Positions 23,630 through 64,000 are shown, counted from the first letter of the stretch. The stretch: DNA of 64,000 bases from Gammaproteobacteria bacterium (GCA_965213995.1 OZ243929.1:1439236-1503235), one strand, 5' to 3'. A program made the numbers and translations. Notes: generated from the sequence alone by a model not told the origin.

Positions 23630-23705
23630 GCGGGCTAGATGGCCCGCTCCCGCTCATTCCTTACCCGGCCGATTTGGGGCCGGCGAGCGCCGCGCGCCGC
23701 AGGCG

Positions 23706-24827: not shown

Positions 24828-25063
24828 GGGATCTCCTTTATTACCTCTTTTTTAAAAAGATAATAATGATGGTGATAAGGCCTGTGGATATCTGTGTCAT
24901 GCTATAAAATTTAATTAAATCAATATGTTAAGCCAATCCATCTTGTGGCGTGGGCTGTGGATTTCGAGTGGCTGCGATTGTGGATTGGCCGCCCGCAAGC
25001 CCGCAGCTAACAATTTCTCCACAGATAAAACCGGCATTTTCCGCAGCTTCTCCAGTCCGGAAT
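24828..25063. other. Candidate chromosomal replication origin (oriC) in the dnaA-dnaN spacer
   Basis: An AT-rich stretch at about 24845-24935 (tttttaaaaagataataatgat..., ataaaatttaattaaatcaatatgttaa) is followed by four TCCACA-core DnaA-box-like 9-mers: TGTGGATAT 24883-24891, TGTGGATTT 24956-24964, TGTGGATTG 24979-24987 and TTCTCCACA 25015-25023. Confidence 0.6.
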
Positions 25064-50478: not shown

Positions 50479-52584
50479 TCAGGAGACGGAGGCGGAATCT
50501 TTAGCCTGGAGCTTTGGAAACAGCAGTGCCGCTCCCACCTGCAGGCTGTCGGGGTCAAGGCCGGGGTTGTACTGGCGCAGCAGCCACATGGGAATATCGT
50601 TGCGGCGCATGAGTTGCCATACGGAATCACCTCGGCGAACCTTGTATTCGGTGACGCCCACCACGTGGTAGTCGGAGAAAAACGCTTCCTGCAGCGCGTA
50701 ATGAAACGCCACCCGGCGCTCGGTGAAGGTTTGCGCGCTGACCCGGCTGAAGTCCAGCCGCAGCCGCTTGCCCACGCCCACCGGGCGTCCGAATCGCAGG
50801 CCGTTCAGATCCCGCAGCCGCTGGGTTCGGATTTCCAGCCAGTCCGCGTAATGCCCCAGCGTCTCGGCGGCCTGCACTTCGACCATGCCGCCGCTCATCA
50901 CCGAGTAGTCATTCGGGTCCACCAAGCTCACCACGCCGTACGACGGTCCGGTGGGCGCCGGCTCCACCGCAGCCTCGAGCGCCGGTCTGGCTTCCTCCCC
51001 GATCCCGTCGTTGGCCTCGCCGCCGCCGCCGATTTCAGCCGCCGCCATGAGCGATTGCGGCTCCGGCTCGGTGACGGGCGGCTCGGGAATAGGCAGATGG
51101 CCAGCCTTGAGCTTCAGTTCCTGTCCGATGTAAATCCGGTTCTTGTTGGGGATATCGTTCAGCGCCAGCAATTCAGCCTCGGACAAGCGGGCCCGTTGGG
51201 CGATGATGGCGATGGTGTCGCCCCGCCGCACGCGATAAGTGGCGGCGCCTTCTTCTATGGGCTGGGCGGCGGCGGGGGCCAGCCCGGGAATCTCCAGCGA
51301 TTGCCCCGCGCGGATGCGGTGCCTGTTTCGCAGGTTGTTGGTCTGCATGATTCTGGACACGGTGGTTCCGTAGCGCTGCGCGATCAGCGACAGCGTGTCT
51401 CCAGGCTGGATGATGTACTCGCGATCCCGAATCTGGCTGGCAAACCTGAGATCGTCCGCTATGCCCGCGATGAGCGCCTGCGCGTTATCGATGGGCGGCG
51501 CCCTCAAGGTGTAGTTCCGGGGCACGTAACGGGAGCTGCCCAGCACGTTTGCCCGAAAGCCGGGGTTGAGCTCCGCCAGGGTTCTTTCCGACACGCCCAA
51601 GGCATCGGCAAGCGTGTCCATTCGCAGATAGTCCGGCATGTCCAGCATCACGTAGCGAATGGGCGGATCCAGCGTGAGCGGCCCGAAGTAGCGTTCCGCG
51701 TCCTTCTCGATTTCCACCACCGCGATCAGTTCCACATAGAAGTTACGGCCCGCAAACTTGAAGGTTCGCCCCTTGTAGCGCCGCACAACCGTTTCGATAT
51801 CCCGTGTGCCCAACTGCCTTACGGCCCGCAGCATGGCGCCCACGCCCTGGTTGTAGGCGGTAATAGCGAGCGGCCAGCTGTCAAGAAGACTGTGGTTGTA
51901 GGCCAGCAACTGCGCCGCCGCCGTGGAAGCGCGCCAAGGGTCCAGCCGTTCGTCCATGACATTGTCGATGCGCATGAAACGGCGCCCGGTGGAACGCGTG
52001 AATTGCCACATTCCCAGCGCCGATGCCGAGGAGCGGGCCTTGGGGTTGAACGAGGATTCCACATGCGGCAGAGCCACCACGCCTTCAGGAACGCCATGCT
52101 CGCGCAGGGTTGCGAGGATATGCTCTCGCCAGCGCCCGGAGCGCACGAGGCCCTCCTTGAAGCGTTCCGCCATTCCCTGCTGCACGCGGATTCGTCCGGC
52201 CGCGGCCCTCAGGATGGCGCGCGAAGGATTGGGACCCCAAGCATCAAGCGCCCGCTGCTCAAGTTCGCTCAGCTTGGCCGGGCGATTGTCCGCCAAGCGG
52301 TTCAGGACATTGCGGTAGTCGCGCGCGGCCTTGCGGATGGCGTCGCGCCGTCCGCGGGGAGAAAGATTCTTCAATGAAACTTTCCCGTACACCACGCCGG
52401 CGTAAAGGTTGTCGTGAACCAAACCGGCCTCGCCGCCCACTTCGCCGAAAACCTGTTTCCAGAAATCAATCTCGGCGCGCATGCCTTCGGGAACCGGCAA
52501 GCCTCCGGTGTCGGCCGAGGCGGCGAAAGCGAGGGTGAGCGCGAGCGCCGGGAGCAGGGAGAGTGTTCTGGCGCAAGCCCGCAT
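50479..52584 (-). CDS. Lytic murein transglycosylase with three LysM domains (MltD-like)
   Basis: SLT core LPHVESSFNPKARSSASALGMWQF. LysM repeats YIIQPGDTLSLIAQRYG, YRVRRGDTIAIIAQRA and YKVRRGDSVWQLMRRN. Confidence 0.85.
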   Translation of the reverse strand: MRACARTLSLLPALALTLAFAASADTGGLPVPEGMRAEIDFWKQVFGEVGGEAGLVHDNLYAGVVYGKVSLKNLSPRGRRDAIRKAARDYRNVLNRLADNRPAKLSELEQRALDAWGPNPSRAILRAAAGRIRVQQGMAERFKEGLVRSGRWREHILATLREHGVPEGVVALPHVESSFNPKARSSASALGMWQFTRSTGRRFMRIDNVMDERLDPWRASTAAAQLLAYNHSLLDSWPLAITAYNQGVGAMLRAVRQLGTRDIETVVRRYKGRTFKFAGRNFYVELIAVVEIEKDAERYFGPLTLDPPIRYVMLDMPDYLRMDTLADALGVSERTLAELNPGFRANVLGSSRYVPRNYTLRAPPIDNAQALIAGIADDLRFASQIRDREYIIQPGDTLSLIAQRYGTTVSRIMQTNNLRNRHRIRAGQSLEIPGLAPAAAQPIEEGAATYRVRRGDTIAIIAQRARLSEAELLALNDIPNKNRIYIGQELKLKAGHLPIPEPPVTEPEPQSLMAAAEIGGGGEANDGIGEEARPALEAAVEPAPTGPSYGVVSLVDPNDYSVMSGGMVEVQAAETLGHYADWLEIRTQRLRDLNGLRFGRPVGVGKRLRLDFSRVSAQTFTERRVAFHYALQEAFFSDYHVVGVTEYKVRRGDSVWQLMRRNDIPMWLLRQYNPGLDPDSLQVGAALLFPKLQAKDSASVS

Positions 52585-52731
52585 AGTCGGGCTGCCTTTC
52601 TACACCAAAGCGGCGGGTTTCGCAATCCGCGCGCGGGTCTCAATCCTCCATGCGCCTTGCGCGATCAACCTTCCGATGGGCATCATTGCCGCTTAAGTTT
52701 CCAGCCGCGCCGCGAGGTGATTGGAGCCGCA

Positions 52732-53616
52732 GTGAACGAAAAGCCCGGCAAGGCGCAAGCAGCGCTCAAATCGCGCGCCCGCGCCTACGGGCGGCTGATC
52801 CGCTTGAACCGCCCAACAGGAACGCTGCTGCTTTTGTGGCCCACGCTGTTCGCAATATGGCTGGCCTCGGATGGCGTTCCGCCGGGCAATGTGCTGCTTG
52901 TTTTCGTTGCGGGCACCTTCCTCATGCGCTCGGCGGGCTGCGCGCTTAACGATTTTGCCGACCGCCGCGTGGATGCGCTCGTCAAGCGCACCCGCGACCG
53001 GCCGCTGGCAGCGGGTGAAATCCAGCCGGTCGAGGCCCTGGCGGTGGCTGCGGCCTTGACGGTGGCGGCCGCCTTGCTGGCGCTCACGCTGCCGCCTGTT
53101 GTGATCGGGCTTGCGGTGCTGGGCGCCGTCGCGGCCGCGTTCTATCCTTTCGCAAAACGCTTGGTCTCGGCGCCGCAGCTGGTGCTGGGCGTGGCGTTTT
53201 CCTGGGGCGTGCCCATGGCCTACGGGGCCTTGTCGGATTTCGGGGATATTTCCCTGTGGATGCTGTGGCCGCTGACCTACTTGTGGGTGGTTATTTACGA
53301 CACGCTGTATGCCATGGTCGATCGCGACGACGACTTGAAAATCGGCGTGCCGTCCACGGCTGTCCTTCTGGGCGGACGGGACATCGCTTTTATCGCGTGC
53401 GGCCTTGCCGCGTACTTGGCCGGGATGCTGGCATTAGGGCTTTTGCTGGGGCTCGGCGCGCTGTATTTCACCGGCTGGGCGGCGGCGGCGGCATGCGCGG
53501 GCTGGCAGGTCTGGCTGATTCGGGGCCGGGATCGAATGGGCTGTTTCCGGGCTTTCAACAACAATGCGCTGCTGGGCTTTTTCCTCTACGCCGGCTTGGC
53601 CATCGACATGCTCTAG
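52732..53616 (+). CDS. ubiA: 4-hydroxybenzoate polyprenyltransferase
   Basis: RLNRPTGTLLLLWPTLFAIW, NDFADRRVDALVKRTRDRPLAAGEI and YDTLYAMVDRDDDLKIG. The GTG at 52732 is preceded by GGAG. Confidence 0.85.
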   Translation: MNEKPGKAQAALKSRARAYGRLIRLNRPTGTLLLLWPTLFAIWLASDGVPPGNVLLVFVAGTFLMRSAGCALNDFADRRVDALVKRTRDRPLAAGEIQPVEALAVAAALTVAAALLALTLPPVVIGLAVLGAVAAAFYPFAKRLVSAPQLVLGVAFSWGVPMAYGALSDFGDISLWMLWPLTYLWVVIYDTLYAMVDRDDDLKIGVPSTAVLLGGRDIAFIACGLAAYLAGMLALGLLLGLGALYFTGWAAAAACAGWQVWLIRGRDRMGCFRAFNNNALLGFFLYAGLAIDML

Positions 53617-53862: not shown

Positions 53863-54726
53863 ATGCCCATGCCTGAAGCGGGGGCCATCGAAACGCCGTC
53901 GGGCAAGGGCGCGGCGGACGAGAATTTTCCCGTTGGCTCATGGTTGCTGCCGGCGCGATTGCGGCGGCATATCGCGGCGTTTTACGCCTACGCCCGGGCC
54001 ATTGACGATATTGCCGATAATCCGCAACTTGAGCCCTCGGAGAAAATCCGCCGTCTAGAGGGTTTCGCGCAGGCGGTGAGCGGAGCGAGAACGGACGACG
54101 CGGCCTACCGCACGGCGCACGATATCCGCCGCAGCCTTGCGGAAACCGGCGTTAGCCATCGGCACTGCGTGGATTTGACCCGCGCCTTCAAGCAGGACGC
54201 GGTCAAGCGGCGCTATGCCGATTGGGGCGAATTGATGGACTACTGCAACTTCTCCGCCGCGCCCGTAGGCCGCTACCTGATTGATTTGCACCGCGAGAGC
54301 GGCAGCGCCTACGAGCCCGCCGACGCGTTGTGCAACGCCTTGCAAGTCCTCAACCATTTGCAGGATTGCGTCGACGACTACCGCCTGCTCGACCGGGCAT
54401 ATCTGCCAGGCGACTGGATGCGCGAGGCCGGCGCAAACCTCGAAATGCTTCGCGAGCCTGCTGCCCCATGCGCCTTGCGTGAAGTTTTCAATCGCTGCCT
54501 GGATGCCACTGACGCCCTGCTGCTTTCGGCCAACCAGCTGGCCGGGCGCTTGCGCGGCGCGCGCTTCGCTATGGAGTCGGCGACGATAGTGGCCATTGCC
54601 TGGAAACTCAGCGCTGAATTGCGCCGCCGCGATCCGGTCGCGGAGCGGGTGGAATTGAGCAGGATGCAATTCGCCGGCTGCGTGATGCGCGGCATCGGTC
54701 GTGTATCGCTTGGCCGAAACGGCTAG
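53863..54726 (+). CDS. hpnC: Hydroxysqualene/squalene synthase HpnC
   Basis: SGKGAADENFPVGSWLLPARLRRHIAAFYAYARAIDDIADN is the HpnC-type N-terminus (ENFPV). A second Asp-rich region, LQDCVDD, follows. Confidence 0.8.
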   Translation: MPMPEAGAIETPSGKGAADENFPVGSWLLPARLRRHIAAFYAYARAIDDIADNPQLEPSEKIRRLEGFAQAVSGARTDDAAYRTAHDIRRSLAETGVSHRHCVDLTRAFKQDAVKRRYADWGELMDYCNFSAAPVGRYLIDLHRESGSAYEPADALCNALQVLNHLQDCVDDYRLLDRAYLPGDWMREAGANLEMLREPAAPCALREVFNRCLDATDALLLSANQLAGRLRGARFAMESATIVAIAWKLSAELRRRDPVAERVELSRMQFAGCVMRGIGRVSLGRNG

Positions 54727-54740
54727 AATAATGCTTCCGG

Positions 54741-55817
54741 TTGATTTTGGAGGTAGCCCTGTTGGGGAGAACGGCTCCTGTTTTCGTGACCGGTGCAGCG
54801 GGGCATGTCGGCGCCAATCTGGTTCGCCGACTGCTCCGAGATGGCGTGAAAGTGCGCGTTCTGCTCCGGCACCAAGACAACAATGAAGGGCTCGACGGCT
54901 TGGACGTGGAGCGCGTGTTCGGTGATATCCGCGACCTTGATGCCACGCGCAAGGCGGTGGAAGGCTGTCAAGGCGTGTACCATGTCGCGGCCAAGATATC
55001 GACCATCGAGGGCAATCACGCCCATCGGCGGGAAATATTCGATTGCAACGTTGTGGGCACCCGCAATATGCTTAAGGCCGTGCGGGAGGCCGATGCCGGC
55101 CGCATGGTGGTGACCGGCTCCTTCAGCGCCGTCGGCTATGATCTTGATAATCCCTCCTCCCCGGCCAACGAATCCATGCAGTTCTATCCCATGGAGCGCA
55201 CCATGCCTTACGAGCGCAGCAAGTCGCTGGTTGAGCATGAGTGCTGGCGCGCCGCGGCAGCTGGCCAGGATGTGGTGGTGGCGACCTGTTGCGCGGTGGT
55301 GGGCGCTGCGGATTTCTTTCCCTCGAGGCTGGGGAGCGCCTTGTGCGCCTTCAGCAACCGCAAGTTGCGGGCCTACGTGGATGGAGGCTTCGAGTTTGTT
55401 GCCGCCCGCGACATCGTGGAAGGTCATGTGCTGTGCATGGAGCGCGGGCGCTCGGGTGAAAAATACATTTTCAGCAGCGAGTACAAAACGATCTCCGAAA
55501 TTCTCGATCTGTTCGAGGAGGTTTCGGGTGCGCCGCGCCCAAACCGCCGGGTTCCGGTGGGCCTGATGCTGCCGTTCTCCGAGGTGGCGAGCTTTTATCT
55601 CAGTCGCTGCCATCCGGATTTTCCGCAGCGCTTTACGCCGGGCGCCATCCGCCTGCTGCGCAAGTGCTTGCACGCCGATACTGGCAAGGCCCAGCGGGAG
55701 CTGGGCTACCGGCCCACCAGCATCCGGGAAGCGGTGCATGAAGCCTATGCGTTCCATCATCAGCGCAATGCCATTACTCATCCGCTCGCCAAGGCGCCGA
55801 GGGAGGGTCCGGCGTGA
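54741..55817 (+). CDS. NAD-dependent epimerase/dehydratase family protein (HpnA-like / 3-beta-HSD-like SDR)
   Basis: VFVTGAAGHVGANLVRRLL Rossmann motif, with an extended-SDR catalytic YERSK (YxxxK). A TTG at 54762, preceded by GGAGG, may be the true start. Confidence 0.8.
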   Translation: MILEVALLGRTAPVFVTGAAGHVGANLVRRLLRDGVKVRVLLRHQDNNEGLDGLDVERVFGDIRDLDATRKAVEGCQGVYHVAAKISTIEGNHAHRREIFDCNVVGTRNMLKAVREADAGRMVVTGSFSAVGYDLDNPSSPANESMQFYPMERTMPYERSKSLVEHECWRAAAAGQDVVVATCCAVVGAADFFPSRLGSALCAFSNRKLRAYVDGGFEFVAARDIVEGHVLCMERGRSGEKYIFSSEYKTISEILDLFEEVSGAPRPNRRVPVGLMLPFSEVASFYLSRCHPDFPQRFTPGAIRLLRKCLHADTGKAQRELGYRPTSIREAVHEAYAFHHQRNAITHPLAKAPREGPA

Positions 55818-55876
55818 CAGGCGGAGAAGGAAATGACAGGCGCCTCAATGGCAGTTACTCCTAAGGAGGATTCGGC

Positions 55877-56986
55877 ATGAACCAGGCACAGGTAGAGGCA
55901 CAGGCAGCGCCGCCGCCCGGCTTTTACGAGGCCGGCAATTTGCGGCAGAAGTCCCGCGCCGCCGGCATGGACCCCGACTATTGGTACGCCGTGGAGGAAG
56001 TCCGGCGGATCAAGCCGGGGACTGTGGTCGAGGTGGTGTTCTGGAAACGCTCGATCGCGCTTTATCGCGCCAAGGACGGATCTTTTCATGCCATGGAGAA
56101 TCGCTGCGCGCACCGCCAGCTCAAACTGTCCTTGGGCGTGGTGGAGGGTTGCCGGCTGGTGTGCTCCTACCACGGCTGGAAATACGACCCGGACGGAAAA
56201 CTGGCCGATACCGATCATGAGCGGATGGGCAAATTGCCCAAGGTGCAAGTCAAAACCTATCCGGTGAAAGTGCGTTACGGCCTCGTATGGCTATTTCCAG
56301 GCGATCCGGACCGGGCCGAATCGCGCCCGATTCCGGATATTCCCGAACTTGAGGGGCGCGGTCGCTGGGCCTGCGTGCCTCTCACTTTTACTTGGACCGC
56401 TCATCACTCGATGGTGATCGATAATGTGAGCGATTTCTCGCATGCTTTTCTGCACCGCCGCTACCGTCCGTTTGTGGGCGCAAAGCTGACCCGTTGCGAA
56501 ACCGTAGGCGACGATGTGCATGTGTCCTACGACACGGAGATAGGCGCCGGCCGCATTTCCAGCCGGTTTGTGGACAAGGCTAGCGTCGACACCCAGTATA
56601 TCGAGCTTTGCTACCAGTACCCGTACCAGTGGTCCAATACCGACGATGCGATCAAGCACTGGCTTTTTGTGCTGCCGATTGATGAGCGGACCACCCGCGC
56701 GTTCTTCCTGTTCTATTTCAAATCGCTGAAAATCCCCGTGGTGCCGGTGCGGATTCCACGCTTCGCCATGACTGCGGTGCTGAAGCTATCCAACCGATGG
56801 CTGATCGGCCCCTTGCTGGGTCAGGACGGATTTGCGGTTGAGGCGGAGCAGGAAGGTTACGAGCGCCACTGGGATGCCCGCCCGCTTGAGTTCAATCCGG
56901 TGGTTAGAGCCTTTCAGAACGTGACGGTGCGCAAGTGGCAGGAGCACTTGGAGCGCGAGAAAGCCAACGGGGCCGCCAGTGCCTGA
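55877..56986 (+). CDS. Rieske [2Fe-2S] non-haem-iron oxygenase
   Basis: Rieske motif CAHRQLKLSLGVVEGCRLVCSYHGW (CxH...CxxH). Candidate mononuclear-iron motif NVSDFSHAFLH. A GGAGG RBS precedes the ATG. Confidence 0.85.
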   Translation: MNQAQVEAQAAPPPGFYEAGNLRQKSRAAGMDPDYWYAVEEVRRIKPGTVVEVVFWKRSIALYRAKDGSFHAMENRCAHRQLKLSLGVVEGCRLVCSYHGWKYDPDGKLADTDHERMGKLPKVQVKTYPVKVRYGLVWLFPGDPDRAESRPIPDIPELEGRGRWACVPLTFTWTAHHSMVIDNVSDFSHAFLHRRYRPFVGAKLTRCETVGDDVHVSYDTEIGAGRISSRFVDKASVDTQYIELCYQYPYQWSNTDDAIKHWLFVLPIDERTTRAFFLFYFKSLKIPVVPVRIPRFAMTAVLKLSNRWLIGPLLGQDGFAVEAEQEGYERHWDARPLEFNPVVRAFQNVTVRKWQEHLEREKANGAASA

Positions 56987-58073
56987 ATCCCAGTTCGCGG
57001 CACCCATTCTGTCGGGCGGCATGCTGATCGATGCCGCCGCGATGGCGGGCGTTTTTCTGGTTTGGCTGTTTGTCGGATCGATGTTTCTGCCCGGCGCCCG
57101 CGTTGCCGGGGAGGATGCGGAAGGGAACCCCGTGAGCTACCGGCTCAACGGCTTGGCGCTGTACCTGCTGACCGCGCTCGCGGCCGCCGCGGCCCATCTG
57201 GGCGGATGGTTCCCGCTGTCGGTGCTCTATAGCCATTTCTTCGCCCTGTTCGCAGTGGCGAATCTGTTCGCGTTTGCGCTTTCCGGATGGCTCTATTGGC
57301 GCGGCGCGCGCAAGCGCCGGCAGCCCGGATTTTGGCGGAACTTTTTCTACGGCACCGAGCTCAATCCTTCGCTGCTGGGCGTGGATCTTAAGATGTTCAG
57401 CTATCGCCCCTCGCTGATCGGGCTGGCGCTGCTCAATGCGTCCTTCGCCGTGGTGCAATACGAAACGCACGGTCGGATTACGCTGGCGATGGCGCTCTAT
57501 CAAGCGCTTGGTTTTATTTACGTGCTCAATTATTTTCAGTTCGAGCGCGGAATGCTGCGAACTTGGGATATCGTGAGCGAACGCTTCGGATGGATGCTGG
57601 TGTGGGGCGACTACGCGCTGGTGCCGTTTTTCTACTGCATTGCCGGTTGGTGGCTGGTGGATGCCGCCGGACCAGCCATGCATCCTGTTTTCGCCGCTGG
57701 CATCGCGCTGCTTTTCGGTGTCGGCTTCTGGATATTTCGCGGCGCCAACTCGCAGAAGGATCGCTTTAAGAATGATCCCGGGGCCATGATTTGGGGCAAG
57801 CCGGCGGAATCGCTTGACGGCCGGCTGCTTGTATCGGGATTTTGGGGCATCGGGCGGCATCTCAATTACACGGGGGAGATTTGCATCTACCTGGCGTTTG
57901 CCCTCACCACCGGGTTCTCTTCCTGGGTGCCCTATCTGCTGCCCGCTTGGATAGCGAGCCTTTTGTGGCATCGCTCGCGGCGGGATGAGCGCCGCTGTCG
58001 GGCCAAGTACGGCGAGCTGTGGGCGCGCTACCGGCAGCGGGTGCCCTGCTGCATGATTCCGTTTGTGTACTAG
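56979..58073 (+). CDS. ERG4/ERG24-family sterol reductase (Delta14/Delta7/Delta24-type)
   Basis: FFYGTELNP, WDIVSERFGWMLVWGDYALVPFFY, FRGANSQKDRFK, LLVSGFWGIGRHLNYTGE and LLWHRSRRDERRCRAKYGELWARYRQRVPCCMIPFVY are family hallmarks. The GTG overlaps the Rieske gene stop by 8 nt. Confidence 0.85.
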   Translation: MPESQFAAPILSGGMLIDAAAMAGVFLVWLFVGSMFLPGARVAGEDAEGNPVSYRLNGLALYLLTALAAAAAHLGGWFPLSVLYSHFFALFAVANLFAFALSGWLYWRGARKRRQPGFWRNFFYGTELNPSLLGVDLKMFSYRPSLIGLALLNASFAVVQYETHGRITLAMALYQALGFIYVLNYFQFERGMLRTWDIVSERFGWMLVWGDYALVPFFYCIAGWWLVDAAGPAMHPVFAAGIALLFGVGFWIFRGANSQKDRFKNDPGAMIWGKPAESLDGRLLVSGFWGIGRHLNYTGEICIYLAFALTTGFSSWVPYLLPAWIASLLWHRSRRDERRCRAKYGELWARYRQRVPCCMIPFVY

Positions 58074-58149
58074 GAGCTTGCGGCCGGCCCGTGGGGCGCG
58101 AAAACCGCTTCGCCGCGACACGGCGCCGTTGGCAGTCCCGCCTGTTTAG

Positions 58150-61100
58150 ATGAAACAATCCTCAAGTATGCCGTCCTATGACATAGCCGTCGTGGGCGCC
58201 GGACCGGTAGGCAGCGTATGCGCCCTGGCCCACGCCCGCAAAGGTGCCCGGGTGGCTTTGCTGGAAGCCAATCCGCGCGCCGTGCGGCGTTTGGCCGGCG
58301 AGTGGCTGCATCCGCCCGGGGCGCGCGCGCTGCGCAATCTGGGGGTTGATCTTGATACGCAGCTGCCCAGTTGCGCGGGCAGAGGGTTTGTGGTGTTCCC
58401 GGACGATGGCGGAGAGTCCATTGTCTTCAATTATCCCGACGAAGCGCCCGGTCTGGTGTGTGAGCACGAGACGCTGGTTGGACGGCTGCGCGAGACCATC
58501 GAGCGCGAGCCGGGAATCGACTATCTGGCGCAAGCGAGGGTGCGCGAGGTGGGGGGCCGGCAGCTCGGCTACACGTTCGATGGCTCGAATCAGCGCCTGA
58601 CCGCCGGCAGAATTGTGGGAGCCGACGGTCGGATGTCGGTGGTGCGCAAATCGCTGGGCCTGTCCGCCGAGCTGATGACCAGCTCGCGGATGCTGGGCCT
58701 GGTTCTCAACGATGTGCATTTGCCGCTGGAGGGCTATGGACACCTGCTGCTGGGCGGTCCGGGCCCGATCCTCATCTACCGGGTGGCCGAGGAGCGCATC
58801 CGCCTCATTGTGGATATCCCGCTGGACCACTGGGCGCCGGGAGATCCGGTCGGCTTGCTGTTGGACGCCTATGCTCCGCTTGTGCCCGAGGAGGTTCGCG
58901 CCGCCTTTGTGCAGGCGTTGCGCTCAGGCAGGTTCAGAGCCGCGGCCAGCAGCTTGCGGCCGCGCGTCACCTACGGCAGCCCGGACCGGGTGCTGATCGG
59001 CGATGCCGCTGGACATTACCATCCGATGACAGCGATGGGGATGACCCTGGGCTTCGGCGATGCGATTGCGCTGGCCGAAAGCGCAAACTTCGAGGAGTTC
59101 TCGAACCGCCGTTTTTTGGATACGCGCGCGCCCGAGCTGCTTGCCATGGGCCTCTACGAGGTCTTCGCCGATCATCGCGACGAGGCCACGATGCTGCGCC
59201 ACGCGGTGTACCGGAACTGGCGGGCGAATGATGCCTTCCGCGAGCGAACCGTGGGCTTGTTGGCCTGCGAGGACACATCCCTTTCCAGCCTGACCTTGGC
59301 GTTCGGTGCCACGGTGCTGCGGTCGGTGGCGGGCGAGATTCCGCTTTCCTATAAAGCCAGCGTATGGCGGCGGCCTCTTGATTTGGTTCAGCGGCTTGCC
59401 GTGCGGCTCGGATGGGCGCTGGTTGGCGTGCGGGACTTGCAGAAGGCCAAGAGCGCAAACGGAAGCATGCAACCGCAGCCAAGCCATCCGCTGGCGCATG
59501 CGTTTTTAGTGTCGATGCCGGCGCGATCCGGCGCGGCGAAGTCCGTTCAATCAAAAGAGCCTGCTCCGCCCGATCCTGAAACCGCCGTTCGGCGGGCCGC
59601 AAAACGGCTAGTGGGTTTGCAGCGCGATGACGGCGCCTGGGAGGGCGAGATGGTGTGGTGCCCCATGCTCACCGCGCAATATGTGCTGCTCCATCATATC
59701 CTCGGGCGGCCGCTGGGCGATGCCCGGCGCCGCAGCGTTCTGCGCCAATTTGAGCGCAGCCGCTTTGCCCAAGGCCAATGGGGCATGCACGACCATTCGC
59801 CGCCCAATCTGTTTGTGACCACCCTGGTTTATGTTGCAGCGAGACTGCTGGGGGTTGAGCGCGACGATCCCTTGATAGAGCCGGCGCGCGCCTTCATGCA
59901 AACCGAAGGCGTTGCAAGCATTCCCAGCTGGGGGAAATTCTGGCTTGCGCTTTTGGGCCTGTACGGCTGGCGCGGGGTCAATCCCGTGCTTCCCGAACTC
60001 TGGCTGCTGCCGCGCTGGTTTCCTTTGCATCCGTCCAACTGGTACTGCCATACCCGCCTGATCTACATGGCCATGGCCGCGATCTACGCGCGGCGGTTCG
60101 TAGCGCCAGCCACGCCATTGATCGCCTCGTTGCGGGAGGAGCTGTATCCGCAGGGGTTCTCAAGCGTCAATTTCTCTGCGGCGCGCAACCTGCTTCGCCA
60201 AGGCGATCTGTTTGCCCGCCCGAGCGTTTGGCTCAGGGCCGGCTACGCCATGGCGCGCCTCTACGACCGCCTCCATATCCGTCGCCTGCGTGCCCGCTGC
60301 GTGAAATCGATCATTCCCCGGATCCGCTGGGAGCTGAACAGTTCAAGCCACACGAATATTTCCCCGGTGAGCGGAATTCTGAATATCCTCGCGTTATGGC
60401 TGCGCGACCCCAACGATTCCGATGGCCTCAAGGCGCTTGAAAAGCTGGAGGACTGGATATGGGATGACGAAGAGCACGGCGCGCGCGTGACCGGCGCCCG
60501 AAGCGCTTCCTGGGACACCGGCTTTGCGCTGCAGGCGCTGTCGGCCGCCGCCAAGGTCGAGGACACCGGGAGCGCCATGCAAAACGCTGCGGACTTCCTT
60601 GCGGCGCAACAGATCAATGTGAGCTTCGAAGGATTTCGCGAAGCCTTCCGGGCGGACCCGAAGGGCGGCTGGTGCTTTGCCGGCGGCTGGCATGGTTGGC
60701 CGGTATCCGACTGCACCGCCGAAGCGGTGCTGGGGCTTGTCGCCGCGCGCGGCGATGCGGCGGACCGCGCCGCGATCGCCAATGCCGTCGCCTTCATGCT
60801 GCGCAGCCAGAACCGCGACGGCGGTTTCGGCAGTTACGAGGCGCGCCGCTCCAGGGTTCCTCTGGAGTGGCTGAATCCTGCGGAGATGTTTGGCGAGTCG
60901 ATGACCGAGCATTCATTTGTGGAATGCACAGCATCCTGCCTCGCGGCGCTGGCCGCGGCGGGCAGGCATTTCCCGGACCTTGCCGACGACTCTGTTTCGG
61001 CAGCCGTGTCGCGGGCGGATGCGTGGCTCAGGCGCACCCAGGCCAGCGACGGGTCGTGGCGCGGAGTGTGGGGCGTGCAATTTGTTTACGGCACGTTTTT

Positions 61101-61512
61101 CGGGGTGCGGGGCCTGCTGGCTGCTGGTTGCAGCCGGACCGATCCGGCTCTGCGCCTAGCCTGCCGGTGGCTGCTGGACCGCCAGCGGGAGGATGGCGGA
61201 TGGGGCGAACACCACAGCGGCTGCTTGCCCGGCACTTACGTGGAGCATGAGGAAAGCCAGGTCATCCAAACCGCTTGGGCATTGATCGCGCTTTTAGAGG
61301 CGGGCGATTCCAACTGGGCGGCGCTTTCGCGCGGCGCCCAGTTCCTGCTGAGAACGCAGCAAGAGGATGGCGGATGGCCCAAGCAGGATATGGCGGGGGT
61401 GTTTTTCCGAACCGCGCTTCTGGACTACGTGCTCTACCGGCAGTATTTCCCTTTGCATGCGCTGGCGCTGTTCGAGCGCCGTCAGGCGCGCTTGGATACG
61501 GCAAGGTCGTGA
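58150..61512 (+). CDS. Fusion protein: squalene monooxygenase (epoxidase)-like FAD domain plus oxidosqualene cyclase
   Basis: N-terminal domain: YDIAVVGAGPVGS, GEWLHPPG (compare the SQMO motif GELLQPGG) and GDAAGHYHPMTAMGMT (compare GDAxNMRHPLTGGGMT). C-terminal domain: multiple QW repeats (QRDDGAWEGE, QNRDGGFGSYE, QASDGSWRGVWG, RQREDGGWGEH, QQEDGGWP) and the catalytic GGWHGWPVSDCTAEAV. One uninterrupted 1120-aa ORF. Confidence 0.85.
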   Translation: MKQSSSMPSYDIAVVGAGPVGSVCALAHARKGARVALLEANPRAVRRLAGEWLHPPGARALRNLGVDLDTQLPSCAGRGFVVFPDDGGESIVFNYPDEAPGLVCEHETLVGRLRETIEREPGIDYLAQARVREVGGRQLGYTFDGSNQRLTAGRIVGADGRMSVVRKSLGLSAELMTSSRMLGLVLNDVHLPLEGYGHLLLGGPGPILIYRVAEERIRLIVDIPLDHWAPGDPVGLLLDAYAPLVPEEVRAAFVQALRSGRFRAAASSLRPRVTYGSPDRVLIGDAAGHYHPMTAMGMTLGFGDAIALAESANFEEFSNRRFLDTRAPELLAMGLYEVFADHRDEATMLRHAVYRNWRANDAFRERTVGLLACEDTSLSSLTLAFGATVLRSVAGEIPLSYKASVWRRPLDLVQRLAVRLGWALVGVRDLQKAKSANGSMQPQPSHPLAHAFLVSMPARSGAAKSVQSKEPAPPDPETAVRRAAKRLVGLQRDDGAWEGEMVWCPMLTAQYVLLHHILGRPLGDARRRSVLRQFERSRFAQGQWGMHDHSPPNLFVTTLVYVAARLLGVERDDPLIEPARAFMQTEGVASIPSWGKFWLALLGLYGWRGVNPVLPELWLLPRWFPLHPSNWYCHTRLIYMAMAAIYARRFVAPATPLIASLREELYPQGFSSVNFSAARNLLRQGDLFARPSVWLRAGYAMARLYDRLHIRRLRARCVKSIIPRIRWELNSSSHTNISPVSGILNILALWLRDPNDSDGLKALEKLEDWIWDDEEHGARVTGARSASWDTGFALQALSAAAKVEDTGSAMQNAADFLAAQQINVSFEGFREAFRADPKGGWCFAGGWHGWPVSDCTAEAVLGLVAARGDAADRAAIANAVAFMLRSQNRDGGFGSYEARRSRVPLEWLNPAEMFGESMTEHSFVECTASCLAALAAAGRHFPDLADDSVSAAVSRADAWLRRTQASDGSWRGVWGVQFVYGTFFGVRGLLAAGCSRTDPALRLACRWLLDRQREDGGWGEHHSGCLPGTYVEHEESQVIQTAWALIALLEAGDSNWAALSRGAQFLLRTQQEDGGWPKQDMAGVFFRTALLDYVLYRQYFPLHALALFERRQARLDTARS

Positions 61513-61525
61513 GGGGCGCCCGAGA

Positions 61526-62269
61526 ATGATCCGCACACGGGCCCGGACAACTGCTGACCACACCCACGCCGCCGCTAGTCAGGGGGAAGGCGTTGCGGTG
61601 CCGGCGGGCGTGCTCCTGACGCTGATACTGGCCGTTTTGGCTTTGCCCGGCCTTGCGGCGCGCTATTGGGCCGACGGCCATCTGAGCTTGGTTTATTCCG
61701 TCCTCTGCGTGTTCTTTGCCGTTAACTTTCTTATCTGCTGGTGGGAAATTTGCCTCTACTTCCGCCGCGACTATATCGAAAAGCGCGCCCGCTACTGGCG
61801 GCAGCACCGAAAGGAAACTGGCCGCTCGCCGGTGCTGGATTTTGTTCTTTCCCGGGTGCCGCTCAAGCGAGCGTTTTCGCTCACTGTTTGGGCCAACGTT
61901 TGGGCCACCTACGCCGAATATGACGGCTCGTACGCGGACCGCCGCAGCTACGGGTTCAACGTCGATGTCGCCAACGGCTTCGCAACGCCGCTGCCCACAT
62001 TGGCGCTCTATGCGGCCTACGCCTTCGAGTTCATTCCGGCCCTTGCCGCAGGCATTCTTGGGGCCATGCTGTTTTGGCAATTCCTCTACATGACCTCCGC
62101 GTATCTTCTGAGCTTTGCGGTAGCGAAGCGCTATGAGCGCCTCAGCGGCCGGGAAATTTGCATCTATATTCTGGCAATGAATTCGGTATGGATACTGTGT
62201 CCGATTTTGGGCCTCTTCGTATCGATCGACCTGATCGTGAGCGGCAGCTACAGCGCCTTGGGATACTGA
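61526..62269 (+). CDS. Polytopic membrane protein, EBP/EXPERA-like (candidate sterol Delta8-Delta7 isomerase)
   Basis: About 4-5 TM segments. A by-eye match to the emopamil-binding-protein pattern: FAVNFLICWWEICLYF (EBP: FIHLVIEGWFVLYY), VWATYAEYDGSYADRRSY (EBP: LWKEYAKGDSRY) and ILAMNSVWILCPILG (EBP: VFMNALWLVLPGVL). Confidence 0.5.
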   Translation: MIRTRARTTADHTHAAASQGEGVAVPAGVLLTLILAVLALPGLAARYWADGHLSLVYSVLCVFFAVNFLICWWEICLYFRRDYIEKRARYWRQHRKETGRSPVLDFVLSRVPLKRAFSLTVWANVWATYAEYDGSYADRRSYGFNVDVANGFATPLPTLALYAAYAFEFIPALAAGILGAMLFWQFLYMTSAYLLSFAVAKRYERLSGREICIYILAMNSVWILCPILGLFVSIDLIVSGSYSALGY

Positions 62270-62316
62270 ACCAGAAGCCTCCCGCAGCCGGCCCCAAAGC
62301 CGCACAGCAGTTAAAG

Positions 62317-62420
62317 CCCGGTTCTCGGCCCCGCCTCGTGGGAGTGTCGGCGGCAGGAGCCGCCGCCAAGCCCCATGGATGGGTTTATGCGTCTCCCACG
62401 AGGCGGGGCCGAGAACCGGG
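62317..62420 (+). repeat. Family-1 intergenic palindromic element, copy g
   Basis: Arms cccggttctcggccccgcctcgtgggag / ctcccacgaggcggggccgagaaccggg are perfect. Inner hairpin ggcggc-agga-gccgcc, core aagccccatggatgggtttatgcgtctc. It lies between convergent genes. Confidence 0.85.
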
Positions 62421-62447
62421 CGAGGTCGAGCACAGCGAGGTTGCTGG

Positions 62448-63734
62448 CTATGCCAGCGGTCGGCGGGTGGGCTGGGCCGTCTGGCGGACGATGGCTTGGG
62501 CGGCGATTTCTCCGGACCGAACTGCCGATTCGATGGTGGCAGGCAAGCCGGTGGCGGTCCAGTCACCGGCTAGGAACACATTGGCGAACGCGCTTGCGGC
62601 GCCGGGGCGCAGACGCGCTTGTTCCGGTGTTTGAACAAACGTGGCCCGCTTTTCTTTCACCACGCGGTACGGCGGAAGGCTCGCCGGATTGTCGGCCAGC
62701 GCGGCAGCGACATCGCGCCAAGTTCGCTCAGCCAGCACCGCGGCTGATTCATGCACCAGATCAGCTGCGGCGCTAATGGTGACGGAGGCCACATCGCCGC
62801 GAACAAAAAGCCATTGCGCCGTGCCTCCGATCAGTCCGATAAACGGGAGCTGTGCGGGAATATCGGCTGGTTGGGACAAACGAAAATGCACATTCACGAT
62901 GGGGCTGCTTTGCAGCGGCGCCGCGAGTCCGGGCAGCAAGCCCGCCGCGGCCTGCGGCGGAACGGCTAGCACCACCCTGTCGTCCGCGCCGAGCCGCACG
63001 CGGCGCTCGCCGAAACACAGCGCCTCCGCCCGTCCATTCGACCGCTCGATTTGAGTGAGCCGCCGCTTAAATTGCAGCTCCGCTCCTTGTGCCCGCAGCC
63101 AAGCGAGCGCCGGGTCCACAAACGCGTCGGACAGCCCCCGCGCGGCGATCAGCGGACGGCAAGCGGCCTCGCCTTTGGCGAAGGTCTCGCGCAACACCGG
63201 CCGCAGCAATTGCGCGGCGCCCTCGGTGGCCGGCATGTTCAGCGCCGCCACGGCAAGCGGTTCCCAGAAACGCTCAAATAAAACGCCGCGGCTGCCCACG
63301 CAGTCCGCGACTGTCCGGCTGGGTCCGGCGAGCATCAATGCGAGCGCCGAAAGATGGCTCCATGCCGAGGAGTCGGGCGTTCTTCTGCCGGGATGAAAAA
63401 TCCACCAGGGCACGATGCCCGAGTTGGGGCGCAGCATCCATCGCCGCCCGCCGCCCACATCGAAAAAGGGAAAGCAGGCTCTTTCCGGGCCGACCAGCGC
63501 GTTGGCGGCGGCGCCGACCAGCGAGAGGTAGCGGGCAGTCGATTGGTTGCCGCTCAGCAACAGATGATTGCCGTTATCAATGCTGCATCCGAGCCGGGCA
63601 TCGGCAAAGGAGCGGCAGCGCCCGCCGGCCCGCCCGCTTGCCTCATGCAGCACTACCGCATGCTTTTTCGCGAGCAGGGAAACGGCCGTGGAAAGCCCCG
63701 CCAGCCCGGCGCCTATGACGTGCGTTCGGGGCAA
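62448..63734 (-). CDS. hpnE: Squalene-associated FAD-dependent desaturase HpnE
   Basis: HVIGAGLAGLSTAVSL...VLHEASGRAGGRCRSF dinucleotide fold, an amine-oxidase-like body and the C-terminal FLAGDWTATGLPATIESAVRSG. It lies downstream of hpnD. Confidence 0.85.
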   Translation of the reverse strand: MPRTHVIGAGLAGLSTAVSLLAKKHAVVLHEASGRAGGRCRSFADARLGCSIDNGNHLLLSGNQSTARYLSLVGAAANALVGPERACFPFFDVGGGRRWMLRPNSGIVPWWIFHPGRRTPDSSAWSHLSALALMLAGPSRTVADCVGSRGVLFERFWEPLAVAALNMPATEGAAQLLRPVLRETFAKGEAACRPLIAARGLSDAFVDPALAWLRAQGAELQFKRRLTQIERSNGRAEALCFGERRVRLGADDRVVLAVPPQAAAGLLPGLAAPLQSSPIVNVHFRLSQPADIPAQLPFIGLIGGTAQWLFVRGDVASVTISAAADLVHESAAVLAERTWRDVAAALADNPASLPPYRVVKEKRATFVQTPEQARLRPGAASAFANVFLAGDWTATGLPATIESAVRSGEIAAQAIVRQTAQPTRRPLA

Positions 63735-63752
63735 ACCCGCTGCGGGCTTCCG

Positions 63753-64000
63753 CTAACCGCTCGTTCGGGAATGGAGAAATCCATGGCGCAGCACCATCCA
63801 AAGCTTGCGCCAGCGGCCTATGACAACCGGTTGGGCCCATTGCTGCCAGCCCCGCGCATCAAGCTTCTTGAGCGTATGCCTGTAGATCTCCATCATAATA
63901 ACGACCGGTCGGGTCACGCGCTGGCTTAATTGCGGCAACAGCTTGTCCGTTTCCGAGTAGTAGCCGATCGCGCGTCCGGCCAAGTCTGTGCAGGCAGCGG
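63753..64000 (-). CDS. hpnD: Presqualene diphosphate synthase HpnD (C-terminal part; gene continues beyond the window)
   Basis: ...LAGRAIGYYSETDKLLPQLSQRVTRPVVIMMEIYRHTLKKLDARGW...RWRKLWMVLRHG matches the HpnD/phytoene-synthase-family C-terminus. The frame stays open to position 64000. Confidence 0.7.
   Translation of the reverse strand, partial: AACTDLAGRAIGYYSETDKLLPQLSQRVTRPVVIMMEIYRHTLKKLDARGWQQWAQPVVIGRWRKLWMVLRHGFLHSRTSG

What the first reader, a model, noticed from the sequence alone, without database searches (positions are those of the whole stretch)
53863..64000. Sterol-type (oxidosqualene-based) triterpenoid biosynthesis cluster in a bacterial chromosome
Six co-directional genes run with spacers of at most 77 nt or overlaps: hpnC (54726) to SDR (54741), SDR (55817) to Rieske (55877), Rieske and reductase overlapping by 8 nt, reductase (58073) to the fusion ORF (58150), and the fusion ORF (61512) to the EBP-like gene (61526). 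Convergent hpnE-hpnD adds the rest of squalene synthesis.

Together they encode HpnC/D/E squalene synthesis, epoxidation, cyclisation by an enzyme carrying VSDCTAEA, an ERG4/ERG24-family reductase, a Rieske oxygenase with an SDR, and an EBP-like membrane protein. VSDCTAEA is the oxidosqualene-cyclase acid motif, whereas squalene-hopene cyclases carry DxDDTA.

Sterol synthesis is rare and patchy in bacteria (Methylococcales, some Myxococcota, Gemmata and a few others). A compact operon that joins the bacterial three-enzyme squalene route to this many downstream, eukaryote-like tailoring functions would be unusual. An automated pipeline would probably label it 'hopanoid' because of the hpn genes.
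Basis: partly seen in the sequence, partly recalled or inferred. Interest (0 to 1): 0.92.

Follow-up and report, generated by a model that had tools for sequence, protein, structure and literature searches.

The report
Bacterial sterol operon missing CYP51
This is a real bacterial sterol-synthesis operon of a type already described in sponge-associated bacteria, but this copy has lost the enzyme that removes the sterol 14-methyl group and carries an unannotated distant relative of the animal sterol isomerase EBP.

Summary
Six co-directional, tightly packed genes (53863-62269) plus convergent hpnE-hpnD encode HpnC/D/E squalene synthesis, a single 1120-aa squalene epoxidase-oxidosqualene cyclase fusion, an ERG24-type sterol reductase, a Rieske oxygenase with an SDR, and a 247-aa membrane protein.

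The cyclase is clearly an oxidosqualene cyclase, not a hopene cyclase. The Rieske/SDR pair are the bacterial C-4 demethylase SdmA/SdmB, not eukaryote-like enzymes.

The 247-aa protein has no Pfam or NCBIfam match. Its predicted fold matches only human EBP, and it keeps 7 of 11 EBP catalytic-determinant residues, though not His76.

The cluster is not rare. The fusion occurs in at least 549 species-representative genomes across many phyla, mostly sponge-symbiont MAGs. The sdmB-sdmA-erg24-erg11-fused erg1/7 cluster was published in 2022-2023.

Three things are particular here:
- CYP51 (erg11) has been deleted in place, leaving a 63-nt relic at 58091-58153.
- No sterol methyltransferase is present.
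- HpnCDE flank the operon.

All remaining genes, including ERG24, are under purifying selection. Whether C-14 demethylation is encoded elsewhere in the genome remains open.

Verdict: a variant of a known kind, of moderate interest.

The parts
53863..54726 (+). hpnC: hydroxysqualene (squalene) synthase, first gene of the operon
   Evidence: TIGR03464 HpnC 257.4 bits, above the cut-off of 250.45. PF00494 169 bits. dN/dS 0.12-0.19.
54741..55817 (+). sdmB-like SDR: C-4 decarboxylase / 3-ketoreductase of bacterial C-4 sterol demethylation
   Evidence: Best NCBIfam hit is NF052578 SdmB at 293 bits, below the equivalog cut-off of 600; HpnA is next at 236. PF01073 3Beta_HSD 66 bits. 74-85% identical to the gene at the same position in about 65 other clusters.
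55877..56986 (+). sdmA-like Rieske oxygenase: 4-methylsterol monooxygenase
   Evidence: NF052579 SdmA 421 bits over its full length, below the cut-off of 600. Rieske and VanA_C domains. A CxH...CxxH motif is visible in the translation. dN/dS 0.08-0.10.
56979..58073 (+). ERG24-type sterol reductase (Delta14-reductase family)
   Evidence: PF01222 246 bits. 245 bits to PDB 4quv, the Delta(14)-sterol reductase of Methylomicrobium, aligned to the C-terminus including the GxWGxxRHxNYxGE region. dN/dS 0.14-0.18 in the CYP51-less lineages.
58091..58153 (+). Relic of a deleted CYP51 (sterol 14alpha-demethylase): 20 codons plus a stop, whose TGA overlaps the fusion ATG
   Evidence: It translates to VGRENRFAATRRRWQSRLFR*. 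This equals the first 12 codons (VAREYDLAAIRR) joined to the last ~8 codons (..SLFR*) of the CYP51 in sister locus L082, fused at a CGGCG microhomology. Alignment score is 25, against 4.8 +/- 2.1 (maximum 16) in 2000 shuffles. The L082 gene is CYP51: 323 bits to M. tuberculosis CYP51.
58150..61512 (+). Single ORF fusing squalene epoxidase (aa 5-393, nt 58162-59328) to oxidosqualene cyclase (aa 473-1114, nt 59566-61491). The catalytic motif VSDCTAEA lies at nt 60703-60726. An alternative start is at 58168.
   Evidence: PF08491 SE 95 bits, plus SQHop_cyclase_N and _C. TIGR03463 761 bits. PDB 6c6n squalene monooxygenase 95 bits and 1w6k lanosterol synthase 439 bits. The fusion is conserved over its full length in hundreds of proteins.
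61526..62269 (+). 247-aa membrane protein, a distant EBP/EXPERA-like putative sterol double-bond isomerase
   Evidence: No Pfam or NCBIfam hit. The family has 320+ members. AF2 model pLDDT 83.8, pTM 0.80. The only convincing Foldseek PDB matches are human EBP 8w0r and 6oht (probability 1.0, TM 0.56-0.57; the next hit has TM below 0.26). hhalign against EBP gives E 1e-4. The family's near-invariant residues coincide with EBP catalytic determinants (PMC4263179). dN/dS 0.19-0.29.
62448..63734 (-). hpnE: hydroxysqualene dehydroxylase, convergent with the operon
   Evidence: TIGR03467 394.9 bits, above the cut-off of 283.05.
63752..64000 (-). hpnD: presqualene diphosphate synthase; only the C-terminal 81 codons lie in the window
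   Evidence: Translation. It is 94% identical to the C-terminus of the L001 gene, which passes TIGR03465 HpnD (294.5 bits, cut-off 278.6).

Best explanation
This is a chromosomal operon about 30 kb from oriC in an uncultured gammaproteobacterium. Its closest relatives are MAGs, and the wider family is dominated by sponge symbionts. It belongs to the already published 'sponge-symbiont' bacterial sterol cluster type.

Inferred pathway, from domain homology:
1. HpnD, HpnC and HpnE convert farnesyl diphosphate to squalene.
2. The N-terminal flavin epoxidase domain of the fusion protein makes 2,3-oxidosqualene.
3. The C-terminal cyclase domain cyclises it, most likely to lanosterol, because the residue equivalent to V453 is valine.
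4. SdmA (Rieske oxygenase) and SdmB (SDR) remove one or both C-4 methyl groups.
5. The EBP-like membrane protein most likely shifts a nuclear double bond, in the manner of a Delta8-to-Delta7 isomerase.

Shown directly: in this lineage the CYP51 gene that normally sits between ERG24 and the fusion gene was removed by an in-frame, microhomology-flanked deletion. A 63-nt relic remains.

Inferred: the ERG24 reductase has stayed under purifying selection since that deletion. I therefore judge it slightly more likely than not that C-14 demethylation is still supplied from outside the operon, either by a CYP51 elsewhere in the genome or by exogenous Delta8,14 sterols. If it is not supplied, the products are 14alpha-methyl, C-4-demethylated sterols. 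No side-chain methyltransferase is present, so the products should carry an unalkylated C8 side chain.
For: - Gene identities.
- OSC rather than SHC: TIGR03463 761 bits against TIGR01507 284. Human LSS 439 bits against SHC 198, with DCTAE aligned to D455 and V852 aligned to V453. The V453 = lanosterol rule for bacteria is from PMC4919349.
- Same cluster type elsewhere: 65 of 80 GTDB loci carry SdmB-SdmA-ERG24-P450-fusion. The published A. aerophoba cluster has the same order.
- CYP51 deletion: there is no P450 in the 64-kb window. The relic aligns to both ends of the L082 CYP51. The relic is shared by L001 and L002. L082's gene is CYP51.
- Phylogeny: (L082,(L084,(window,L001,L002))) in 404 of 500 bootstraps.
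- No vertical CYP51 ortholog (above 76% identity) from these lineages in a 5.8-billion-protein search.
- Purifying selection on all genes.
- EBP-like assignment. A distant family member lies in another steroid-type cluster, P450 / KshA-like Rieske / 3beta-HSD.
- Chromosomal context of dnaA, dnaN, gyrB, rnpA, yidC, mnmEG and parAB.
Against: - No lipid or enzyme data exist for this organism or for any member of the fused-cyclase clade that I could find.
- SdmA and SdmB score below NCBIfam equivalog cut-offs (421 and 293 against 600), so their substrate and the number of methyls removed are inferred.
- The OSC has A783/H848 where lanosterol synthases have T381/C449 and cycloartenol synthases have Y/H, so the product is not certain.
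- The EBP-like protein lacks the His76 proton donor and fails the Pfam EXPERA threshold.
- ERG24 under purifying selection is hard to reconcile with a true absence of C-14 demethylation.
- The rest of the genome could not be searched.
Confidence: 0.8

Rival explanations
1. The pathway is complete. A second CYP51, probably a xenolog acquired with another partial cluster, is encoded elsewhere in the genome. This redundancy allowed the in-operon copy to be deleted. The cell then makes C-14- and C-4-demethylated Delta8/Delta7 sterols (zymosterol or lathosterol-like), with ERG24 acting normally.
For: - ERG24 has dN/dS of 0.14-0.18 across lineages that diverged after the loss (dS up to 0.5), the same as in CYP51-containing comparisons.
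- In about 12 of 80 loci the fusion gene stands alone, so sterol genes can be dispersed.
- Horizontal spread of these genes is evident.
Against: - No CYP51 lies within the 64-kb window or within +/-10 kb in L001, L002 or L084.
- In the search with the sister-lineage CYP51, the next hit after self is only 76% identical, and none of the listed hits comes from the 2.54-Mb contig of L001. Only 120 of 1652 hits were listed, so a divergent xenolog is not excluded.
Confidence: 0.45
2. C-14 demethylation is truly lost and the operon makes 14alpha-methyl sterols. ERG24 is retained because it acts on exogenous Delta14 sterols from the host or neighbouring symbionts, or has a different double-bond specificity.
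For: - CYP51 deleted in place, with different junctions in the window clade and in L084.
- No vertical ortholog detected.
- The CYP51-less state has persisted through the L084/window divergence.
Against: ERG24's only established substrate class is produced by CYP51. No evidence of changed specificity was obtained: it is 62-73% identical to the ERG24 of CYP51-containing clusters.
Confidence: 0.35
3. It is a hopanoid or tetrahymanol (squalene-cyclising) cluster, as the hpn gene names would suggest.
For: HpnC/D/E equivalogs are present. The SDR's second-best NCBIfam hit is HpnA, at 236 bits.
Against: - The cyclase scores 761 bits on the OSC model and 284 on SHC.
- It carries DCTAE rather than DxDDTA.
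- It is fused to a squalene epoxidase.
- No SHC is present in the window.
Confidence: 0.02
4. The 247-aa protein is not an isomerase. It could be a non-catalytic sterol-binding or transport protein of the EXPERA fold, like sigma-2/TMEM97.
For: The His76 proton donor is replaced by Ile/Leu. The Pfam EXPERA threshold is not met. Foldseek E-values are only 0.02-0.17.
Against: - Seven of the 11 alanine-scan catalytic determinants of EBP are identical, and E122 is conservatively D.
- These are the most conserved columns of a family with mean column identity of 22%.
- The family is embedded among sterol enzymes in two unrelated cluster types.
Confidence: 0.25

Closest known systems
Sponge-symbiont bacterial sterol gene clusters (Brown et al. 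2023, PMC10070321; 'clusters of steroid genes' of Kelly et al. 2022, PMC9531527)
   Same: The order sdmB-sdmA-erg24 followed by a single fused erg1/erg7 (SMO/OSC) gene is the same. Proteins are 62-85% identical. The cluster is spread across many bacterial phyla in sponge microbiomes.
   Different: - erg11 (CYP51) is deleted here, leaving a relic.
- No sterol methyltransferase is present, whereas 58 of 87 loci have at least one.
- hpnC and hpnE-hpnD are joined to the cluster. That joining is seen only in this gammaproteobacterial clade and in L083.
- An EBP-like gene follows the fusion directly. The papers I read do not annotate it.
Methylococcus capsulatus sterol pathway (SMO, OSC, CYP51-ferredoxin, SdmAB, 8,14-Bsr)
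   Same: Bacterial lanosterol-type synthesis with SdmA/SdmB C-4 demethylation (PMC10202945, PMC13277303).
   Different: - M. capsulatus has separate SMO and OSC genes and a CYP51-ferredoxin fusion.
- It uses an NTF2-type 8,14-reductase instead of ERG24.
- SdmAB scores here are below the Methylococcus equivalog cut-offs.
Human EBP (3beta-hydroxysteroid Delta8,Delta7-isomerase; PDB 6oht, 8w0r), EXPERA superfamily
   Same: The predicted fold of the 247-aa protein matches only EBP (TM 0.56-0.57). E80, W101, Y104, D108, Y111, N193 and W196 are conserved, and E122 is D.
   Different: - 13-14% sequence identity.
- No Pfam PF05241 hit.
- His76 and Arg110 are not conserved.
- It is bacterial. PMC8237579 infers that EBP arose within eukaryotes, and the known bacterial C-8 isomerases are ERG2-type (PMC10202945).
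MaSR1, Delta14-sterol reductase of Methylomicrobium alcaliphilum (PDB 4quv)
   Same: 245 bits, aligned to the C-terminus including the cofactor-binding signature.
   Different: The window protein is about 60 residues shorter at the N-terminus. No in-operon enzyme generates its presumed substrate.

Membership tests
Oxidosqualene cyclase (as opposed to squalene-hopene cyclase) | Scores higher on OSC than on SHC profiles and structures | tested here: met
   TIGR03463 761 bits against TIGR01507 284. 1w6k 439 bits against 1gsz 198. It is below the TIGR03463 subfamily cut-off of 851 but above the general TIGR01787 cut-off.
Oxidosqualene cyclase (as opposed to squalene-hopene cyclase) | Catalytic Asp in a VxDCTAE motif, aligned to human D455 | tested here: met
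   V852-S-D854-C-T-A-E-A aligns to human V453-A460. It is invariant in 23 homologs.
Oxidosqualene cyclase (as opposed to squalene-hopene cyclase) | Cyclises 2,3-oxidosqualene to a protosteryl-derived tetracycle (lanosterol or cycloartenol) | not testable with these tools
   Only the V453-equivalent valine (V852) points to lanosterol. A783 and H848 are atypical.
Squalene epoxidase (flavin SE/ERG1 type) | SE domain plus an N-terminal FAD-binding GxGxxG motif | tested here: met
   PF08491 95 bits and PF01494 60 bits. 6c6n 95.5 bits over residues 5-372. VVGAGPVGS is visible in the translation.
SdmA/SdmB bacterial C-4 sterol demethylase | Match to the NCBIfam equivalog models NF052579 and NF052578 above cut-off | tested here: not met
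   421 and 293 bits against cut-offs of 600. Both are the best hits and cover the full length. The models are built on Methylococcales sequences.
SdmA/SdmB bacterial C-4 sterol demethylase | An adjacent Rieske oxygenase and SDR pair inside a sterol cluster; Rieske CxH..CxxH ligands | tested here: met
   Adjacent genes at 54741-56986, conserved next to ERG24 in about 65 loci. The motif is visible in the translation. The published homologous pair is named sdmA/sdmB.
SdmA/SdmB bacterial C-4 sterol demethylase | Removes C-4 methyl group(s) from lanosterol-type sterols | not testable with these tools
   One or two methyls may be removed. Methylococcus removes one, and Calothrix SdmAB removes two (PMC10202945).
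ERG4/ERG24 sterol reductase | PF01222 above gathering score; homology to a solved Delta14-reductase | tested here: met
   246 bits against a cut-off of 27. 4quv 245 bits.
EBP / EXPERA superfamily | Pfam PF05241 above gathering score | tested here: not met
   No hit even at E up to 10. Two distant family members give sub-threshold hits, E 0.04 and 0.7. A profile search against PDB sequences finds no EBP.
EBP / EXPERA superfamily | EBP fold | tested here: met
   The top two Foldseek PDB hits are EBP, with probability 1.0 and TM 0.56-0.57. All other hits have TM below 0.26. Model pLDDT is 83.8.
EBP / EXPERA superfamily | Catalytic determinants H76, E80, W101, Y104, D108, R110, Y111, E122, T125, N193, W196 (PMC4263179, PMC6549186) | tested here: inconclusive
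   Seven are identical (E74, W126, Y129, D133, Y136, N219, W222). E122 is D147 and T125 is N150. H76 is I70 and R110 is S135. The TM2 mapping rests on an ungapped extension of the hhalign anchor.
HpnC/HpnD/HpnE three-enzyme squalene route | NCBIfam equivalog cut-offs for all three proteins | tested here: met
   HpnC 257.4 above 250.45 and HpnE 394.9 above 283.05. HpnD is truncated by the window end; its 94%-identical ortholog in L001 scores 294.5 above 278.6.
Published sponge-symbiont sterol cluster (sdmB-sdmA-erg24-erg11-erg1/7 fusion-SMT) | CYP51 (erg11) between erg24 and the fusion | tested here: not met
   Only a 63-nt relic remains.
Published sponge-symbiont sterol cluster (sdmB-sdmA-erg24-erg11-erg1/7 fusion-SMT) | Fused SMO/OSC gene preceded by sdmB-sdmA-erg24 | tested here: met
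Published sponge-symbiont sterol cluster (sdmB-sdmA-erg24-erg11-erg1/7 fusion-SMT) | Adjacent sterol C-24 methyltransferase(s) | tested here: not met
   There is no SMT homolog in the window, L002, L082 or L084. L001 has only a generic methyltransferase. 58 of 87 loci have at least one SMT.

The most novel reading that the evidence does not exclude
The 247-aa protein founds a bacterial branch of the EBP/EXPERA superfamily that no profile library recognises, with about 330 clusters at 50% identity. On this reading it acts as a sterol nuclear double-bond isomerase with a modified proton-donor arrangement. EBP-type isomerases would then not be a eukaryote-only invention. Separately, the CYP51-less operon would be a natural source of 14alpha-methyl sterols in sponge holobionts.
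Probability: 0.4. Interest if true: 0.65.

Novelty: new variant of a known kind. Interest (0 to 1): 0.45.

Why it matters
Bacterial sterol clusters in sponge symbionts bear on two debates: whether sterane 'sponge biomarkers' can be bacterial, and how the sterol pathway evolved. The cluster type itself is already known, so this window does not change that picture.

Two details are worth passing to specialists.

First, a clade of symbionts deleted CYP51 in place yet kept the downstream Delta14-reductase under selection. Either C-14 demethylation is supplied from elsewhere, possibly shared within the holobiont, or the reductase does something else.

Second, a conserved and unannotated EBP-like membrane protein accompanies sterol genes in two unrelated cluster types. 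It is a concrete candidate for a missing bacterial sterol isomerase, and it is directly testable in existing E. coli lanosterol-producing expression systems.

Tried and rejected
- Exact look-up of the fusion protein found nothing.
- An Rfam scan of the window found nothing.
- Pfam at E up to 10 and a profile search against PDB sequences did not link the 247-aa ORF to EBP. Only fold search, hhalign and residue mapping did.
- A promoter/terminator scan gave no promoter-like site, and no terminator in the intergenic gaps.
- The GC-rich hairpin at 62340-62373 in the convergent gap is not better than shuffles, z = -1.56.
- A literature search for the MAG names found nothing.
- The genomic contexts of distant family members P0446 and P0464 were uninformative short contigs.
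- A hopanoid cluster reading was rejected: the cyclase is an OSC.
- A decaying or pseudogenised cluster was rejected: dN/dS is 0.08-0.29 and there are no stops.
- A mobile island was rejected: the flanks are oriC-region housekeeping genes, and the downstream synteny VTT-MFS-rdgB-rph is shared with relatives.

Full report
**Observation**

Six co-directional genes run from 53863 to 62269, with gaps of 14, 59, 76 and 13 nt and one 8-nt overlap. hpnE (62448-63734) and the 3' end of hpnD (63752 to the window end) converge on them. The region has the same composition as the rest of the window, about 64% G+C.

**Gene identities**

- NCBIfam places HpnC (257.4 bits, cut-off 250.45) and HpnE (394.9 bits, cut-off 283.05) above their equivalog cut-offs.
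- The hpnD fragment is 94% identical to a full-length gene in relative L001. That gene passes the HpnD model at 294.5 bits against a cut-off of 278.6.
- The SDR and Rieske proteins have SdmB (293 bits) and SdmA (421 bits) as their best, full-length hits. Both are below the Methylococcus-trained cut-offs of 600. These are the bacterial C-4 demethylation enzymes, not eukaryote-like ones.
- The reductase is ERG4/ERG24 (246 bits). It matches the solved Methylomicrobium Delta14-reductase 4quv at 245 bits.
- The 1120-aa ORF joins a squalene epoxidase domain to a cyclase domain. The epoxidase scores 95 bits on PF08491 and 95 bits against human SQLE 6c6n.
- The cyclase scores 761 bits on the oxidosqualene-cyclase model against 284 on hopene cyclase. 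It scores 439 bits against human lanosterol synthase and 198 against SHC.
- VSDCTAEA (residues 852-859) aligns exactly with human V453-A460, so D854 corresponds to D455. V852 corresponds to V453. In bacteria tested so far, valine at this position tracks lanosterol and isoleucine tracks cycloartenol (PMC4919349). A783 and H848 sit where lanosterol synthases have T381 and C449, so the product call is provisional.

**How common it is**

- The fusion protein has more than 700 database homologs. Hundreds are full length at 62-68% identity, and the family alignment has a mean column identity of 77%.
- A scan of one genome per GTDB species found at least 549 genomes encoding it. The best 80 are almost all MAGs whose names mark them as sponge symbionts (Ca. 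Porisulfidus, Ca. Poriferihabitaceae, Spongia_Bin9, the SB06xx and APA bins).
- These genomes span Gamma- and Alphaproteobacteria, Binatia, Nitrospirota, Nitrospinota, Acidimicrobiia, Acidobacteriota, Verrucomicrobiota and Desulfobacterota.
- The nearest genome (95% identity) is 'Gammaproteobacteria bacterium isolate r_cahl1' (JAPYNE01).
- The literature already describes this. Kelly et al. 2022 found ERG24-CYP51-LSS clusters in 115 of 537 Ircinia MAGs from 10 phyla. Brown et al. 2023 list an Aplysina aerophoba cluster ordered sdmB, sdmA, ERG24, ERG11, one gene hitting both ERG1 and ERG7, then SMT, and explicitly mention 'fused SMO/OSC homologs'.
- The claim of rarity therefore does not stand.

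**What is different here: CYP51 is missing**

In 65 of the 80 loci a ~470-aa P450 lies between ERG24 and the fusion. In the sister locus L082 this P450 is unambiguously CYP51: 323 bits to M. tuberculosis CYP51 and 320 to M. capsulatus CYP51.

The window, L001, L002 and L084 lack it, and no P450 exists anywhere in the 64 kb.

The 76-nt 'spacer' is a relic:
- Positions 58091-58153 read VGRENRFAATRRRWQSRLFR*.
- This is the first 12 codons of the L082 CYP51 (VAREYDLAAIRR) joined at a CGGCG microhomology to its last codons (...SLFR*).
- It keeps the ATGA stop/start overlap with the fusion gene.
- The alignment score is 25, against 4.8 +/- 2.1 for shuffles, with a maximum of 16 in 2000.
- The relic is shared by L001 and L002.
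- L084 has a different junction: 7 nt, with a GTG start fused to codon 7 of the fusion gene.

A neighbour-joining tree of four concatenated proteins (2118 columns) gives (L082,(L084,(window,L001,L002))) in 404 of 500 bootstraps. This implies one loss with later trimming, or two losses.

Searching the sister CYP51 against 5.8 billion proteins returned itself and then nothing above 76% identity. That database does contain proteins from the L001, L002 and L084 assemblies. A relocated vertical copy is therefore unlikely. A divergent xenolog is not excluded, because only 120 of 1652 hits were listed.

**Selection**

Pairwise dN/dS within this clade:

| Gene | dN/dS |
|---|---|
| SdmA | 0.08-0.10 |
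| SdmB | 0.08-0.18 |
| Fusion | 0.10-0.16 |
| HpnC | 0.12-0.19 |
| ERG24 | 0.14-0.18 |
| 247-aa ORF | 0.19-0.29 |

None of these genes has a stop codon or frameshift. The operon is functional. ERG24 in particular has been maintained since CYP51 was lost, over dS of up to about 0.5. This is the main unresolved tension. ERG24's known substrate is the Delta8,14-diene that CYP51 produces.

**The 247-aa protein**

- It has no Pfam or NCBIfam match.
- It belongs to a family of 320+ proteins of about 244 aa, all annotated as hypothetical. The family has 329 representatives at 50% identity.
- An AlphaFold model built on 28 homologs is confident: pLDDT 83.8, pTM 0.80.
- Foldseek against the PDB returns human EBP as the top two hits (8w0r and 6oht; probability 1.0; TM 0.56-0.57 normalised to the target). 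Every other hit has TM below 0.26, although the E-values are only 0.02-0.17.
- hhalign of a 67-sequence family alignment against human EBP gives E = 1e-4 and probability 57%. The EBP sequence I supplied was verified against 6oht.
- hhalign aligns WATYAEYDGSY with WKEYAKGDSRY and MNSVWILCP with MNALWLVLP.
- Of the 11 alanine-scan determinants of EBP activity (PMC4263179; mechanism in PMC6549186), seven are identical. These are E80/E74, W101/W126, Y104/Y129, D108/D133, Y111/Y136, N193/N219 and W196/W222.
- E122 is D147 and T125 is N150. H76 is I70 and R110 is S135. These mapped positions are nearly the complete set of near-invariant columns of the family.
- The E74 and I70 mapping relies on extending the hhalign anchor through TM2 without gaps. 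That step is my inference.
- Homologs lie within 10 kb of the fusion in 34 of 81 loci.
- A 31%-identical member sits between two KshA-like Rieske oxygenases and a 3beta-HSD-type SDR, next to a P450, on an unrelated metagenomic contig.
- I conclude it is a divergent EXPERA-fold protein acting on sterols, most likely an isomerase with an altered proton donor.
- Hoshino and Gaucher infer that EBP arose within eukaryotes. The bacterial C-8 isomerases reported so far are ERG2-type. I found no paper annotating this family, but my literature access is partial.

**Other differences**

- No sterol methyltransferase lies in the window or in its close relatives, whereas 58 of 87 loci have one to three.
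- HpnC and HpnE-HpnD flank the cluster only in this gammaproteobacterial clade and, rearranged, in L083.
- The window is the chromosomal origin region: gyrB-recF-dnaN-dnaA on the minus strand, then rnpA-yidC-mnmE-mnmG ... rsmG-parA-parB on the plus strand. The operon is therefore core chromosome, transcribed in the direction of replication.

**Verdict**

The finding is real and its central interpretation is right, but it is a member of a published kind. The in-place CYP51 deletion, with ERG24 retained, and the EBP-like gene make it a variant worth a specialist's attention rather than a discovery of a new system.

Noticed in passing
window 19682-40311: The window spans the chromosomal replication origin region. 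gyrB, recF, dnaN and dnaA lie on the minus strand (19682-26416). rnpA, yidC, mnmE, mnmG, an oligopeptide ABC transporter, rsmG, parA and parB follow on the plus strand. The cumulative GC skew has its minimum at about 24-26 kb. The sterol operon lies about 27-36 kb to the right and is co-oriented with replication.
   Followed up: partly
L003-L081: The fused epoxidase-cyclase is 62-68% identical across at least nine phyla of mostly sponge-associated MAGs. This is a very narrow identity band, which implies extensive horizontal transfer of the cluster among sponge symbionts.
   Followed up: partly
L086 2410-8672: A distant (31% identical) member of the 247-aa family sits in a different steroid-type cluster: P450, two KshA-like Rieske oxygenases, the EBP-like gene, a 3beta-HSD-type SDR and an F420H2-quinone-reductase-like gene. 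This could be a sterol-modifying or sterol-degrading pathway.
   Followed up: no
L084 1671-5694 and L082 1234-4278: In the sister lineages the genes upstream of ubiA-hpnC include an MMPL/RND protein with a weak sterol-sensing-domain hit, plus DUF1329/TP_0789-like (LolA-like) and DUF1302 proteins. These are possible sterol export components. In the window they are absent, and htpG, a YkuD transpeptidase and an MltD-like LysM transglycosylase lie there instead.
   Followed up: no
L001 1-5303 versus window 50479-53616: The operon is 95% identical in protein between the two, yet the upstream flank differs. L001 has a YcaO-domain gene, two unannotated genes and a class I methyltransferase where the window has mltD and ubiA.
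   Followed up: no
L084 14297-17014; L082 14150-16203: The relatives carry two amine-oxidase-family genes downstream of the EBP-like gene: hpnE plus a paralog, which is apparently split in L082. The window has only hpnE.
   Followed up: no
window 988-3209: A lower-G+C stretch (58-60%, against about 64% elsewhere) carries two minus-strand ORFs. One of them (1851-3209) has a weak N6/N4 DNA methylase match. This may be a foreign restriction-modification remnant.
   Followed up: no
window 11137-14675: A DUF1838 protein, a 484-aa ORF with no Pfam match and a thiolase-like protein form a co-directional trio of unknown role.
   Followed up: no
L083 2768-15722: A more distant relative (72% identical fusion) has HMG-CoA synthase directly upstream of sdmB. 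Its hpnC/D-type and hpnE genes lie on both sides of a CYP51-containing cluster, and no EBP-like gene lies within 10 kb.
   Followed up: no
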